Assembly: GCF_040938485.1 (NCBI RefSeq)
Contig: NW_027270999.1
Coordinates: 1,860,001 to 1,924,000 of the forward strand
Reading direction: 5' to 3'
Source: Diadema antillarum
Taxonomy: Eukaryota
Length of the DNA: 64,000 bases
Below are positions 50,901 to 55,683 of this stretch, piece after piece. A program made the position numbers. How positions within the stretch are numbered: the stretch's first letter is position 1; every line of letters begins with the position of its first letter.

Positions 50901-53900
50901 TCATAAGCAATGATGAGACTTATACATCGACTCAGTATCATCAGGGTTCTTGTGGCGGTAAACAGCCACGCTTTCAACGACCAACGAATCTGTTTTAATG
51001 CTCCATTAAGTGATGATTAAATCACTTTCCATTAACACAAGAATATTGCTAAATAGCGGTGTTACTAACAACCGTTGAGTACACAGAAATGCCGCAAGTC
51101 GTCCGCAAAGTTTTGTCATGTATGTAAAATGCAATATCTATATCGGATTGCCCTTGTCTACATCGGTCCTATAACTATGTTAAAACCACGAACTCTTTTT
51201 GTTTTCAATACAGTACTTCTCCACCGGACTTTCCCTGCATTTTCCCCGAGTTCATAACGAAGGATATTACCCACATGTATCGGCTCTGGCGGTGAGCATG
51301 TCTTTTCGTCCGTCACCATCGACATCGACGAAGTAGACACGATGATACCACCAGTGCTCCGTGACCGACCCAGTGGTCAGGTCGTGGTAGGGAGCCGGGT
51401 GGGCTGTGTGGAGAAAGCAACAACTGGAGAGGTCATCTTCCCTTGCAAACACTCTCTTCTCCTGTCGAACAAGATTCACTCACAAATGAAATTTACTGCA
51501 TTTCTTAAAAAGTGATGATTATACTTCATCATTTACAAGCTGATACATGTACATGATACACAATGTGGACAGGTTAATTCTATGTTACATGTTGATGTTT
51601 GATGAATACGTTGTAGAATTGAAATTGGAGTCAAATGACTCGAAATATCATACTTTCTCAGACATACGTGATTCTCTATAATATCATATTTAATTGAACA
51701 TGATTGCCACATTGCCAGACCCATTCTTTTTAGGTTTCTGTTTAACATAGTATTTGTAAAGAGAATTGTCTAAGTTGTCAAATAATATTACGATTCAAAA
51801 GTGATACCCCTCTGGTTCAACGCAGGCTCTAAACAATCAAATTAGACATTTAGATCATTTACAATTTGAATGAACACATACAATGGCTTTTCGTTCGTCG
51901 CTGTTCAGTTCACTGTATGATTATACACGTGTGGCTGCGTTTGTCTGAGTTGATTTCATGTATGTCTTTTTTGCTCTAATGAGAGTACTTTACTTAATTT
52001 TTCAGATATGATGGGAAATGCAAAATCATGATATTGGAATATCTTTTCAAAGGCATTAATACATAGATTACTCCTGCCTTCCATTAAAATAACATCCCAT
52101 AAAAAAAAGAAATAAAATAATACATTACAAAAGGTGAGTTCAAACACACAGGCCTACAGGTCATGTATACATCTTAGGTATAGAAAAAAAGCACTGTCGA
52201 GTCCAGAGGACATATTTTTCAACTTCTCGTTTAACTCTTAGCTATAAGTTGATAGTCATTCCAATAGATTAAACAGAAAATGACACTCACACGAACTGTC
52301 TGCTTCAATCACACCAATACTTCCTGCTGTTTTGCCGGGGACCAAAAATCCGTTGGCCACCCACCAATACCGATCGGTGCCGAATACATCTTCTGTATAA
52401 TGAGAAAGGGAAAGCAAGGTGGTTTCGACAAGTCCGTTTCCCCTAAAATAAGGTCAATAGTACAGTTCAGAGTGGGATTGAAAGAAAAGCAATTTACCAG
52501 GAAAGAAGAACTTGAGGCAGAAAGATGTATAGTTAGTATAGTCCTTTGTGGTTAAGGGAATTTTTTTATGAATATGAAAACTCATTAGTAATTACGGAAC
52601 GAAAAACGTGGGCGTGTCTCCATACAAATCATTACAATCAAGACAATAGTGACATCAGCTATCTCTAATATTTGGTCATGTAGAAGAAATACAAATCACA
52701 CAAACAAGCACAATCTATCTTTCTTTCATCAAAATAAAAAGCAACAATTCTTCTCGCGATCTCTGTTGGTCAGCTCGTCACATCTAAGGTCATGATTAGT
52801 TATTTCGCATAATATTTTTGCACTTCACTCCGTTTCTGTCTATTTTTCTCCTTTTCTTTTAATACTTCCTCCTCTCTCCCTACATGATGAGATGTTGATA
52901 AAGTCGTCCATACCTGGAACAGGTTCCACTTCGTTGGGCCACAGAAGACCATCAGCCAAGGTCTGTCGGGCTGAGTTCAGGTTACTACGGCCCAGCTTGC
53001 TGCCGATGTCCCTGATCACGTACACTTCGTCCGTAGACAACGGGTTGGCATTGAAGGTGCTCACGGTCAGGTCCAGCTGGTCAGGATTGTTGGGATTCTC
53101 GTGGATGGCCGAGAAGGCTGCATCATCCGCGTCGAATGAGGTTATTTCAACGTAACTATCTCCCCGGGCCGCCCCGTTGAGGGCAAGCAAGACGAGGCCC
53201 TGCGCAACAAGAAGTAAGATTCTCTCCATTTTGAGTCGGGAGATGTGTCGAAGACGGTATCTCAGTGAAAATGAGAGGAGTTGTTATCTGTATCGAGTAT
53301 AGATATCACAGACACAGGAAAATATGTGTCGTTCTTCGCCAGAAGGGCGTGTTCCCAAGCAAAGCTTGTCGGTCGTCATCAGTAGAAGACGTAATACTTG
53401 GTGCTGTACAGAAAGTAACTACAAAGGTCATTAATTTACCATAAGTCTGCCACCTGAAAACTTGCTGTCTAGACAAACTGATTCTCCCTCTTGATTCAAG
53501 ATGATTCGTCTATCATCATCAAACGGAGCGTAAACCGTAATACACCCATATACAGTACATACACACATACACTCCCACACACATTTAGTTCCTATACATT
53601 GATGGTTACATTTTGAAGTCCGCCTATATAGTTCAATGAAATTTCGTCAGATTTATCAAGATTGGCGCCAGTGAGTACCAGAGTGACTAACCTCATTGGT
53701 TGATAAACAGGCACAGAAAAATATGAAGAGGATGCAGGTATGAATGAAAGCATTATGCATTATCATTTATACGATAGGAAAAGACAACAAAAATTCAGAT
53801 CAAATGAAATCAAATCAACCCAAGTATAGGGGAATGAGCATTGCAAGCGAATGTGAACTAATTGCATTCTAGGTCTTCTATACTTGTGCTCACAGCCGGA

Positions 53901-54244
53901 GCACGAATTTTAGGCAAGGTTCACACAATATTGTATTTTTGTTTTTCTAACGACTATAAACCAATAAATCAGAGTACCATTAGCAAATTACTGCATGTTC
54001 CCCTAACCCCCTTCCCCCTCAAAAAACCCACAACAACAAACAAGCAAAAACGAACGAACTATAAACAAAACACTGAATGAATTGAGTTTTTAACCACCTA
54101 AAGACATCTTAGCAATTTCTGCAACAGAATTGCGTATATAGTGGAGAAATACATGTGAATAATGGAGGGAAAGTCTCACAATCTTCATTCCCCTTTGGAT
54201 GTTTTGGACAACATTGAATTCTCTCATGTCAATGTTAACATGTA

Positions 54245-54276
<32 letters not shown>

Positions 54277-55683
54277 GGGAGAGGGTGGGACTTTTACCAA
54301 AGGCTTTAAGGAAAATTCCAGTCCAAATATAAGTTAGTTTGATCCAAGAAAGGGTAAACTATAAGGTAAAATTTTGATCTAAATCGGGTGAAAATTGAGG
54401 AAGTTATAAAATTTTGAAGTTTCGTTAATTTTTCAGGAAACAGCTCTTGCACAGTCAACATATGCAAATAGCAAAGTGAGCAAATCTTAGTATATCTAAC
54501 TGATCTCTATTCTGAAGTTATTCAACCAGGAATACCATCATGTTTCAGAATTCAATGACAAACATTGAATTTTCGTCATTTTTTTACACGATCCATGGAA
54601 AATATTGAGGCTATGCCATGGTTAGCTCACTCATTTGCATATTTATATCAACCGTATAGAAGAACTGTTTTGCTGAAATTATCAAAACTTCAAAATGTCA
54701 TAACTTTTATTTTTCATCCGATTTCAGTGAAAATTCTACCGTTTAACTGGTAAGATTTTACTCTTTTTTATCAGACTAACTTATATTTGGACTGGATTTC
54801 CCCTTTATTACGACGGCCTTACAGAGAGCCAAAAGTGACAATGGACACATTAACTTCTAGCCCTCTCATTCGTTTTAATTAGGGCGTGTGATTTAAAGCC
54901 CACACTATCTAGGAATGGGGTGGATACTTTGTCCGTAGAAATGCCTCATGATGTCCGACGGCGTTTAAACTCTTAAATCATAATACAGCAGTCTTTTTCA
55001 TGATTCTCGCCTGCCGTTACATATAGTATGCCTCCAGTGTTTTCGAAAATCGCTCTCACGTGCTTGCAAATGAGATGTAGAGGTAAACAACGGATGTTGA
55101 GTAATTTCTTTCCATAATCGTAAGCGGATTACTGGCTAATGCTCTTAATACCAGCCATGAGATGTATATAAAGCCCTCAGCACTTGTCTGAATCACATAC
55201 TTTTGGCCCTTGACACCAACAACTCAAGTTGACCACATCTGCAATATAATAAGAGGGCAAATATTTAAAATACATAAATTTCTGTGAAAATGATTCGTTG
55301 GTTGGTATTATTAGTCTTGTATCCAGCCGCCATGGCTTGGACGGTGCGGAATCTCGGGCACATCGACATCCCTTTCGCTGCCTTCACCTCCGTTCTTCCC
55401 GACCCCAACACGGGAGTGGACACCGTCTCCATCAGCACATTCAACCCCGTGCCAGGCACCAAGGATAACATCTACATCGTGCGCGACGTTGGGCGACAAC
55501 TCGCCGACAACGGTGCGAACGCCCTGGTGACCGAGGTCCTCGCGGACGGCATGGTGTGGCCCAACGAGGTCGAAGAGATTCCCGGTAAATCTTAATCAAT
55601 TTGGTGATAATTATTATAACAATGACAATTGTGATTTTCTTTACCAATTAAGAGTAGACTCCCAATGGGCCCAATAAAAAATG

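What the first reader, a model, noticed from the sequence alone, without database searches (positions are those of the whole stretch)
52914..55584. Head-to-head duplicated paralog pair sharing a ~2-kb intergenic region
Seen: the paralog A ATG (53229, minus) and paralog B ATG (55290, plus) are 2.06 kb apart and point away from each other. The first three introns fall at equivalent positions and phases (all phase 1), and blocks such as STFN, RD(I/V)G, LADG(L/M)(L/V)WPNEVE and WWVANGFLVP are shared. The signal peptides and mature N-termini have diverged strongly. A TATA-like TATATAAA lies at 55165 and a Kolobok-like MITE sits between the two starts. Inference: this is an old inverted duplication, possibly co-regulated from a bidirectional promoter, with specificity diverging in the N-terminal blades. 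That pattern is typical of expanded invertebrate immune or secretory families, and may be the edge of a larger cluster.
Basis: partly seen in the sequence, partly recalled or inferred. Interest (0 to 1): 0.65.

Follow-up and report, generated by a model that had tools for sequence, protein, structure and literature searches.

The report
Old head-to-head sea-urchin propeller gene pair
Two sea-urchin genes that point away from each other are ancient duplicates encoding secreted seven-bladed propeller proteins of unknown function; this is an ordinary, already annotated gene pair, and nothing in the sequence shows a shared promoter.

Summary
Paralog A (minus strand, ATG 53229) is an intact 8-exon gene of 1290 nt, giving 429 aa. 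Paralog B (plus strand, ATG 55290) shows only exons 1-3, residues 1-180 of 429. The rest lies beyond base 64000.

Both match NCBI 'uncharacterized protein [Diadema setosum]' records. Those two records are 50% identical to each other. Synonymous sites are saturated. A-type and B-type genes form separate, fully supported clades that each include Lytechinus. A Diadema-only duplication is rejected at p-AU 1e-57.

The proteins are secreted seven-bladed FG-GAP/VCBS beta-propellers with three DxDxDG loops. The closest solved fold is the aldos-2-ulose dehydratase propeller, at TM 0.63 only.

Several features of the 2060-bp spacer argue against a classical bidirectional promoter:
- It is AT-rich with no CpG island.
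- It carries a 0.5-kb foldback, MITE-like element.
- Gene B has its own TATA box.

Only 2 family members were found for D. setosum, so this is not an expanded family. Co-regulation was not tested.

The parts
52914..53229 (-). Paralog A exon 1 (ATG 53229; signal peptide, blade 1 and the start of blade 2); phase-1 donor
52291..52392 (-). Paralog A exon 2 (holds WWVANGFLVPGK)
   Evidence: AG/GT, phase 1
51275..51403 (-). Paralog A exon 3 (YHR and DVDGDGRKD loop)
   Evidence: AG/GT, phase 1
50458..50670 (-). Paralog A exon 4
   Evidence: AG/GT, phase 1
49859..49932 (-). Paralog A exon 5
   Evidence: AG/GT, phase 0
49284..49336 (-). Paralog A exon 6 (DINGDGRKD loop)
   Evidence: AG/GT, phase 2
48679..48846 (-). 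Paralog A exon 7
   Evidence: AG/GT, phase 2
47749..47983 (-). Paralog A exon 8 with stop codon TAG at 47751-47749 (DLDGDGNVE loop)
   Evidence: exon lengths sum to 1290 nt = 429 codons + stop
53230..55289 (.). 2060-bp spacer between the two start codons; AT-rich, no CpG island, no long ORF, no Rfam match
53764..53771 (-). TATA-like TATAAATG on A's strand, 535 bp upstream of the A ATG (weak candidate only)
54245..54289 (.). (GA)n microsatellite followed by a G-run
   Evidence: read by eye
54308..54805 (.). Foldback or MITE-like element: inverted arms 54308-54448 and 54660-54805, 74% over 152 columns; superfamily not established
   Evidence: DNA fold z = -9.2
55165..55172 (+). TATATAAA, 125 bp upstream of the B ATG; probable core promoter of B
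55290..55584 (+). Paralog B exon 1 (ATG 55290); phase-1 donor
   Evidence: identical to P0004 residues 1-98
58655..58762 (+). Paralog B exon 2 (WWVANGFLVPTK)
   Evidence: AG/GT, phase 1
59177..59314 (+). Paralog B exon 3 (DMDKDGLKD loop); its donor opens intron 3, which runs past the window end
   Evidence: AG/GT, phase 1

Best explanation
The locus holds two ancient paralogous protein-coding genes in divergent (head-to-head) orientation, in a Diadema-type sea-urchin genome. Gene A is complete in the window (8 exons, 429 aa). Gene B shows its first 3 exons, and the rest lies beyond the window end. The duplication happened before the lineage of Diadema split from that of Lytechinus and Strongylocentrotus. 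Since then A has evolved faster than B.

Each gene encodes a secreted, single-domain, seven-bladed FG-GAP/VCBS beta-propeller. It has three DxDxDG calcium-type loops (blades 3, 5 and 7) and a set of polar residues that are invariant from bacteria to animals.

Inferred, not shown:
- Each gene is driven by its own proximal promoter (B by the TATA box at 55165) rather than by one shared bidirectional promoter. Any co-regulation would come from shared distal elements or chromatin.
- The protein acts outside the cell as a Ca2+-stabilised binder of, or enzyme on, a small and probably carbohydrate-like ligand held on the propeller face.
For: Gene structure:
- All A exons have canonical AG/GT sites and sum to 1290 nt.
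- B exons 1-3 are identical to residues 1-180 of the 429-aa NCBI record P0004.
- A differs from the NCBI record P0003 at 12 of 423 aligned residues.

Paralogy and age:
- Exon 1 of A against exon 1 of B gives E 1e-19.
- P0003 against P0004 is 211 of 426 residues identical.
- dS is saturated.
- The A clade has support 100/100 and the B clade 100/99, each with a Lytechinus pictus member.
- A Diadema-only duplication is rejected, p-AU 1.08e-57.
- Branch lengths are 0.32 for Diadema A and 0.12 for Diadema B. Diadema-Lytechinus identity in mature exon 1 is 45% for A and 78% for B.

Protein:
- Pfam FG-GAP_3 scores 44.9 bits against a cut-off of 26.9, and FG-GAP scores 27.6 against 22.1.
- All 26 of 26 aligned relatives match FG-GAP_3.
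- The AlphaFold2 model has pLDDT 89.3 and pTM 0.88. It has 28 strands, read by me as 7 blades of 4, after an N-terminal helix at 2-21.
- Three D-x-[DNST]-x-D-G loops are present, and D281, D285, G286, D403 and D407 are invariant in 26 of 26 rows.
- The best solved fold is the aldos-2-ulose dehydratase propeller (E 1.8e-8, TMq 0.63), followed by integrin alpha, LGI1 EPTP and CRTAC1.

Spacer:
- GC 0.37 and CpG o/e 0.67, against 0.57 for the whole window.
- It holds a foldback element.
- TATATAAA lies 125 bp before the B ATG.
- The two upstream flanks share no inverted similarity longer than 16 nt.
Against: - No expression, CAGE or chromatin data were available, so separate promoters are inferred from sequence alone. 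The transcription starts are unknown. A 5' UTR intron in A could bring the two starts within 1 kb.
- A TATAWAWR match is not rare. Shuffles give about 35 per 64 kb on both strands. By my arithmetic that is about 0.05 expected in a 200-bp stretch on one strand.
- In L. pictus the A-type and B-type genes carry gene numbers only three apart, LOC129271434 and LOC129271437. This hints that the neighbourhood has been kept for a very long time, which would fit a regulatory constraint.
- The protein's function rests on fold and motif resemblance only. TMq is at most 0.63. A PDB sequence search with P0003 found nothing at E<=1. The profile search gave only E about 1e-3 on the Ca loops.
- Bacterial gene neighbourhoods gave no functional clue.
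Confidence: 0.8

Rival explanations
1. One reading: the 2-kb spacer is a true bidirectional promoter from which both paralogs are co-regulated.
For: The genes are divergent and share no intervening gene. The L. pictus orthologues have gene numbers three apart, which suggests long-kept linkage. Both products are secreted proteins of one family.
Against: The start codons are 2060 bp apart. The usual working definition, recalled and not from a call, asks for under 1 kb between transcription starts. Such promoters are typically CpG-rich and TATA-less (also recalled). Here GC is 0.37, there is no CpG island, and a TATA box serves B. A 0.5-kb foldback element and a microsatellite sit in the middle. 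No sequence symmetry exists between the two flanks.
Confidence: 0.15
2. Paralog B is a truncated fragment or pseudogene of three exons, cut off by the satellite arrays behind exon 3.
For: Exons 4-8 of B are not found in 59315-64000. That stretch holds two arrays of a roughly 165-bp satellite.
Against: The three exons are letter-for-letter identical to residues 1-180 of an annotated 429-aa protein. They have open frames and canonical splice sites. B is the slower-evolving, better conserved copy.
Confidence: 0.03
3. The pair is the visible edge of a large, expanded immune-type gene cluster.
For: The proteins are secreted and B runs off the window, so the right flank is unseen. Related beta-propellers of this supercluster include lectins such as tachylectin and PVL (PMC8023676, abstract and Results read).
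Against: Only 2 of 90 hits are from D. setosum, 2 from L. pictus, 1 from S. purpuratus and 2 from Holothuria leucospilota. No third copy lies in window bases 1-47000. The neighbours there are a GET3/ArsA-type ATPase gene, a retrotransposon and a HEAT-repeat gene.
Confidence: 0.05
4. The two copies are a recent duplication or an assembly artefact, such as an inverted haplotig.
For: Inverted neighbouring copies can arise from mis-assembly in highly heterozygous urchin genomes (general knowledge).
Against: Exon-level nucleotide identity is 47-66% and third-position identity 32-39%. Intron sizes differ: B intron 1 is 3.07 kb and A intron 1 is 0.52 kb. The AU test rejects a Diadema-only origin.
Confidence: 0.01

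Closest known systems
NCBI 'uncharacterized protein [Diadema setosum]' records P0003 and P0004, and their echinoid orthologues (S. purpuratus LOC100889205; L. pictus LOC129271434 and LOC129271437)
   Same: B exons 1-3 are identical to P0004. A differs from P0003 at 12 of 423 residues. Length is the same (429 aa), and both records lie on one 39.6-Mb contig.
   Different: Nothing of substance: these are the same genes or their alleles or orthologues. None has a described function. The identifiers appear in 0 papers.
VCBS / FG-GAP supercluster of beta-propellers (Pereira and Lupas 2021, PMC8023676; abstract and Results read)
   Same: Signal sequence, single propeller, FG-GAP and FG-GAP_3 Pfam matches, and a DxDxDG loop motif. 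[quoted passage not shown]
   Different: I could not check whether this particular family is among theirs, because its supplementary figure is closed. Only 3 of the 7 blades carry the Asp-rich loop.
Aldos-2-ulose dehydratase (AUDH) N-terminal propeller, PDB 4a7k, 4a7y and 4a7z
   Same: Best structural match (E 6e-9 to 5e-8, TMq 0.59-0.63). Bacterial look-alike clusters in the Atlas carry PF22301 AUDH_beta_propeller.
   Different: AUDH chains are about 880-900 residues with further domains, against 429 aa with the propeller alone here. Identity is 11-12%. No PF22301 match for P0003, P0004 or P0005 at E<=1. The profile-to-PDB E-value is only 0.61.
Integrin alpha-subunit beta-propeller (for example 1tye_A; Chouhan et al. 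2011, PMC3192720, abstract read)
   Same: Seven FG-GAP blades and three Ca2+-type DxDxDG loops. The profile hits alpha-IIb at E 7e-4 on those loops. TMq is about 0.52-0.54.
   Different: No thigh or calf domains, no transmembrane segment and no beta-subunit context. Sequence similarity is confined to the loops.
Conserved divergent paralog pairs such as collagen IV alpha1/alpha2 and Evc/Evc2 (seen as listings; their biology is recalled)
   Same: Two paralogs from an old duplication, kept head to head.
   Different: Those pairs are described as sharing short bidirectional promoters (recalled). Here the spacer is 2 kb, AT-rich and TE-bearing, and no shared promoter is shown.

Membership tests
FG-GAP / VCBS beta-propeller superfamily | Pfam FG-GAP or FG-GAP_3 match above the curated cut-off | tested here: met
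   P0003: FG-GAP_3 44.9 bits (cut-off 26.9) and FG-GAP 27.6 (22.1). P0004: 43.3 and 34.8. Single window exons fall just below the cut-off: 25.8 and 22.8 bits.
FG-GAP / VCBS beta-propeller superfamily | Seven four-stranded blades | tested here: met
   The model has pLDDT 89.3 and pTM 0.88, with 28 strands after the leader helix. The blade count is my reading of the strand list. All top fold matches are propellers.
FG-GAP / VCBS beta-propeller superfamily | Asp-rich DxDxDG metal loop in the blades | tested here: met
   Three loops in A (166, 281, 403) and three in B (162, 280, 403, the last with T at position 3). Metal binding itself was not tested.
Integrin alpha subunit | Propeller followed by thigh and calf domains and a transmembrane segment | tested here: not met
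   The protein ends at residue 429 with the last blade. PDB profile matches cover the Ca loops only.
Aldos-2-ulose dehydratase (AUDH) | PF22301 AUDH_beta_propeller match plus the additional C-terminal domains of the ~880-residue chains matched | tested here: not met
   No PF22301 hit at E<=1 for P0003, P0004 or P0005. The length is 429 aa. The structural match has TMq 0.63 and 11% identity.
Bidirectional promoter | Divergent transcription starts less than about 1 kb apart (definition recalled) | tested here: inconclusive
   The start codons are 2060 bp apart. If the TATA at 55165 is used, A's start would need to lie at or beyond about 54200. The transcription starts are unknown.
Bidirectional promoter | CpG-rich, usually TATA-less shared region (recalled) | tested here: not met
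   GC 0.37, CpG o/e 0.67, and no 250-bp bin with both high GC and high CpG. A TATA box lies before B.
Kolobok-derived MITE | Kolobok-type terminal inverted repeats and a TTAA target duplication (recalled) | not testable with these tools
   Inverted arms are present. The left flank reads TTAA and the right flank TTTA (by eye). No transposon library is available and there is no second copy in the window.

The most novel reading that the evidence does not exclude
The A/B genes belong to an unnamed, deeply conserved family of secreted single-propeller proteins. The family is found in echinoderms, a hemichordate, crustaceans, a springtail, Capsaspora, fungi, diatoms, Sericytochromatia and Silvanigrellales. 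Its invariant polar residues (WPN, GFLVPxK, YH, R179, D217, GD at 361-362) could mark an undescribed extracellular enzyme activity rather than a mere binding scaffold. In echinoids the two copies may also have been held head to head since before the crown-group radiation, because they share a regulatory element.
Probability: 0.15. Interest if true: 0.5.

Novelty: new member of a known kind. Interest (0 to 1): 0.22.

Why it matters
As a genome feature it matters little. Divergent paralog pairs are common, both genes are already annotated, and no shared promoter is shown.

The modest value lies in the protein family. It is a cross-kingdom, secreted, Ca-loop-bearing propeller with strictly invariant polar residues and no characterised member. 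The echinoid pair offers a slow copy (B) and a fast copy (A) for asking what the family does and how duplicates diverge.

Tried and rejected
It was computed exon by exon with NG86. dS was undefined for exons 1 and 2 and 2.6 for exon 3, so the ratio is uninformative.
- Sequence search of the PDB with P0003: 0 hits at E<=1.
- NCBIfam: only sub-threshold repeat matches, FusH at 30.9 bits against a cut-off of 999 and XAC2610_fam.
- ESM Atlas: no stored model for P0003 or P0035, so no structural search. The feature hits were only FG-GAP/AUDH-propeller-type clusters.
- Bacterial gene neighbourhoods. 31 of 45 matched stretches were confirmed, giving 275 ORFs. The recurring neighbours each occur in 12-13 of 31 loci. 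They are PrkA-type kinase, PhoH/PIN, BacA and S41 protease. They look like lineage synteny of housekeeping genes. A GH31 glycosidase recurs in only 4 of 31 loci. I draw no functional conclusion.
- Long relatives P0010 and P0014 (about 1530-1565 aa). Only spurious low-complexity Pfam matches were found.
- Rfam and tRNA scans of the window: 0 matches.
- Literature. The identifiers appear in 0 papers. 'FG-GAP' with 'sea urchin' and 'secreted' gave 1 unrelated paper. Among the ten papers listed, none contains the phrase 'VCBS repeat-containing protein'. The two D. setosum genome papers do not mention FG-GAP, VCBS, bidirectional or Kolobok in their main texts.
- Rejected readings: recent duplication or assembly artefact, truncated B pseudogene, and expanded cluster (see the rival explanations).
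No eukaryotic genome collection is on hand, so synteny and orientation in other urchins were not checked.
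Full report
**Scope and method**

The window is eukaryotic DNA with spliced genes. I never joined the window's exons into one spliced protein, so that step was left out. Where a whole-length protein was needed (pairwise identity, alignment, tree, structure), I used the database proteins that the exon searches returned, unchanged. These are P0003 and P0004, both NCBI 'uncharacterized protein [Diadema setosum]', 429 aa. 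Whole-length statements therefore hold for those reference proteins. They hold for the window's own genes only as far as the exons agree with them.

**1. The observation**

Start codons, spacing and homology:
- On the minus strand an ATG at 53229 opens a frame that runs to a GT donor after 52914 (316 nt, phase 1).
- On the plus strand an ATG at 55290 opens a frame that runs to a GT donor after 55584 (295 nt, phase 1).
- The two starts are 2060 bp apart and point away from each other.
- The two exon-1 peptides align at 36 of 95 identical residues, E 1e-19.
WWVANGFLVP lies in exon 2 of both genes.

Exon structure, from mapping P0003 and P0004 onto the window by tblastn and reading the splice sites:
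- Gene A, minus strand, has eight exons: 53229-52914, 52392-52291, 51403-51275, 50670-50458, 49932-49859, 49336-49284, 48846-48679 and 47983-47749.
- All A introns are AG/GT. The intron phases are 1,1,1,1,0,2,2. The exon lengths sum to 1290 nt, which is 429 codons plus a stop.
- Gene B, plus strand, shows three exons: 55290-55584, 58655-58762 and 59177-59314, with phases 1,1,1.

Intron positions:
- Introns 1 and 2 lie at the same codon in both genes.
- Intron 3 has the same phase, but in B it lies two codons further downstream in the ungapped alignment.
- Only the donor of B's intron 3 is in the window.

- TATATAAA is at 55165-55172.
- An inverted-repeat element lies between the starts.

Intron 3 is offset by 6 nt, and the 'Kolobok' label was not testable.

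**2. What the genes are**

Identity of the two genes:
- Exon 1 of A found P0003 (95% identity). Exon 1 of B found P0004 (100%) and an L. pictus protein (70%).
- B's three exons are identical to residues 1-180 of P0004.
- A differs from P0003 at 12 of 423 aligned residues, five of them in exon 1.
- Residues 181-429 of B have no match in 59315-64000. B therefore continues beyond the window. That stretch is filled by two oppositely oriented arrays of a roughly 165-bp satellite.

Protein family:
- P0003 and P0004 are 50% identical over 426 columns.
- Pfam finds only FG-GAP_3 and FG-GAP above the cut-off, and all 26 of 26 aligned relatives match FG-GAP_3.
- A search with whole P0003 gave 90 proteins at E<=0.001 among 8000 scored candidates.
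- By source those hits include 2 from D. setosum, 1 from S. purpuratus, 2 from L. pictus, 2 from Holothuria leucospilota and 1 from Apostichopus. They also include 2 Asterias species, Ptychodera, Capsaspora, a springtail and three decapods. The rest include two fungi, diatoms, Sericytochromatia and Bdellovibrionia MAGs, and many unnamed metagenome proteins.
- None of these carries a functional name.
- A genome scan added 31 bacterial loci, mostly Sericytochromatia and Silvanigrellales.

**3. Age of the duplication**

- I aligned 26 of the 90 hits (A1). They were chosen as the named records plus three scarcely named ones.
- I built a tree from 16 of those 26 rows: all deuterostomes, four arthropods and Capsaspora. 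The ten fungal, bacterial and scarcely named rows were left out.
- A-type genes (Diadema, Strongylocentrotus, Lytechinus) form one clade with support 100/100. B-type genes (Diadema, Lytechinus) form another with 100/99.
- Both clades lie inside an echinoid-plus-holothurian clade (95/96) whose internal order is unresolved. Asterias lies outside it.
- An AU test rejects a Diadema-only duplication, p 1.08e-57. It does not reject a single echinoid A+B clade, p 0.238.
- The duplication therefore predates the split of Diadema from Lytechinus and Strongylocentrotus. That split is an early one among living regular urchins, on the order of 250 My by recollection, not from a call. Whether the duplication also predates the echinoid-holothurian split cannot be told.
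- Between A and B in the window, third-position identity is 32-39%. NG86 dS is undefined for exons 1 and 2 and 2.6 for exon 3.
- A is the faster copy. Its end branch is 0.32 against 0.12 for B. Diadema-Lytechinus identity in mature exon 1 is 45% for A and 78% for B.

**4. The protein**

- Both leaders have a basic residue, a hydrophobic run and a small-residue cleavage-type motif (my reading).
- The AlphaFold2 model of P0003, built with alignment A1, has mean pLDDT 89.3 and pTM 0.88. It has a helix at 2-21 followed by 28 strands, which I read as seven four-stranded blades.
- Exon 1 therefore encodes the leader, blade 1 and half of blade 2.
- Three D-x-[DNST]-x-D-G loops lie at 166, 281 and 403, in blades 3, 5 and 7.
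- A profile self-comparison shows a two-blade periodicity: residues 277-428 against 162-306, probability 97%.
- Residues invariant in 26 of 26 rows include W97, P98, N99, G120-V123, K126, Y159, H160, R179, D217, D281, D285, G286, G361, D362, W381, Y383, D403 and D407.
- Foldseek against the PDB puts the aldos-2-ulose dehydratase propeller first: 4a7z, 4a7k and 4a7y, E 6e-9 to 5e-8, TMq 0.59-0.63, 11-12% identity. Glycosidase, LGI1-EPTP, integrin alpha and CRTAC1 propellers follow.
- Sequence searches of the PDB gave nothing for P0003. The profile search gave only E about 1e-3 on integrin Ca loops.
- This places the family in the VCBS/FG-GAP supercluster described by Pereira and Lupas (PMC8023676, abstract and Results read). 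It belongs among that paper's unstudied 'hypothetical' secreted propellers.
- It is not an integrin alpha subunit and not an AUDH. It has no extra domains, and Pfam shows no PF22301 match.
- Its function is inferred only: an extracellular, Ca2+-stabilised propeller whose invariant polar residues suggest a defined small-ligand site. The solved relatives point to a carbohydrate-type ligand.

**5. The spacer and the promoter question**

- The 2060-bp spacer has GC 0.37 and CpG o/e 0.67, against 0.57 for the window. No bin resembles a CpG island.
- It has no ORF longer than 72 aa and no Rfam match.
- It holds a (GA)n/G-run at about 54245-54289.
- It holds a roughly 0.5-kb foldback element. Its arms, 54308-54448 and 54660-54805, pair at 74% over 152 columns. 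The single-strand DNA fold has z = -9.2, and there is no second copy in the window.
- By eye, the element's left flank reads TTAA and its right flank TTTA. That is compatible with a TTAA-targeting transposon but does not show one.
- TATAWAWR occurs three times in the spacer: 53764 on the minus strand, 54640 on the minus strand inside the element, and 55165 on the plus strand.
- Window-wide, 121 matches against 35 expected is inflated by (TA)n microsatellites.
- The 55165 site sits 125 bp before the B ATG, where a core promoter would be expected.
- The two upstream flanks share no inverted similarity beyond 16 nt.

Taken together, the sequence looks like two separate directional promoters with a tolerant, TE-bearing spacer between them. 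It does not look like a compact shared bidirectional promoter. That is an inference. The transcription starts are unknown and no expression data could be consulted.

One point favours some constraint. The two L. pictus orthologues have gene numbers three apart, which hints that the neighbourhood is old. Orientation there was not checked, because no eukaryotic genome collection was available.

**6. Cluster or expanded family?**

- No further family copy lies in window bases 1-47000.
- That region holds a HEAT-repeat gene (about 1-3100), a Pao-type retrotransposon remnant (about 14.6-20.7 kb) and an ArsA/GET3-type ATPase gene (about 33.3-42.5 kb).
- Two copies per echinoid genome were found. That call scored only the 8000 candidates sharing most words, at 90% clustering.
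- This is a small family, not an expansion. The right flank of B remains unseen.

**7. Novelty and verdict**

- Both genes are already predicted in public annotation. Their identifiers appear in no paper of the library.
- The two D. setosum genome papers do not mention the family or the arrangement in their main texts.
The supplementary figure of PMC8023676 may bear on whether the family has been catalogued.
- A divergent pair of old paralogs is an ordinary genome feature.
- The only mildly interesting aspects are the uncharacterised, cross-kingdom propeller family with its invariant polar residues, and the unequal evolutionary rates of the two copies.
- Interest is 0.22. Novelty is 'new member of a known kind'.

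Noticed in passing
window 59417-60078 and 61289-63086: Two arrays of a roughly 165-bp satellite (330-bp higher-order period) lie in opposite orientation inside intron 3 of gene B, flanking about 1.2 kb of other sequence. Together they look like a large foldback structure.
   Followed up: partly
window 47749-53229 (gene A) versus 55290-59314 (gene B): Gene A differs from the public D. setosum protein at 12 of 423 residues, 5 of them in exon 1. Gene B is identical over all 180 residues seen. The two neighbours carry very unequal amounts of protein variation, in line with A's longer branches in the tree.
   Followed up: partly
window 51275 (A donor) and 59314 (B donor): Intron 3 has the same phase in both genes but is offset by two codons, in a poorly conserved linker. 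This could be intron sliding or a hidden pair of indels.
   Followed up: partly
P0003 residues 162-306 versus 277-428: The propeller shows a two-blade internal periodicity (hhalign self-match, probability 97%). Ca-type loops fall on every second blade: 3, 5 and 7.
   Followed up: partly
window about 14600-20700, minus strand: Long open frames of a Pao/BEL-type LTR retrotransposon (Peptidase_A17, E 4e-29), with GC raised to 0.46. It has internal tandem duplications of 179 nt (16995-17352) and 125 nt (20395-20658). I described it only.
   Followed up: partly
window about 33370-42480, minus strand: Exons of an ArsA/GET3-type ATPase gene (Pfam ArsA_ATPase, E down to 2.8e-24). This is the upstream neighbour of gene A.
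   Followed up: partly
window 2-3095, minus strand: Exons with HEAT_2 and HEAT_PBS repeats (E 6e-13). From memory they resemble deoxyhypusine hydroxylase; that name comes from no call.
   Followed up: no
window 44351-44542: A run of 192 N, either an assembly gap or a masked stretch, flanked by long (TA)n tracts at 44788-44912. I left it untouched.
   Followed up: no
window 55687-55724: A perfect (AT)19 microsatellite lies 100 bp into intron 1 of gene B.
   Followed up: no
loci L001-L031 (bacterial MAGs): Close bacterial relatives of this animal protein family (37-52% identity to a Sericytochromatia member) are concentrated in Sericytochromatia and Silvanigrellales/Oligoflexia MAGs. That is a patchy cross-kingdom distribution. 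The origin of the animal genes was not examined.
   Followed up: no
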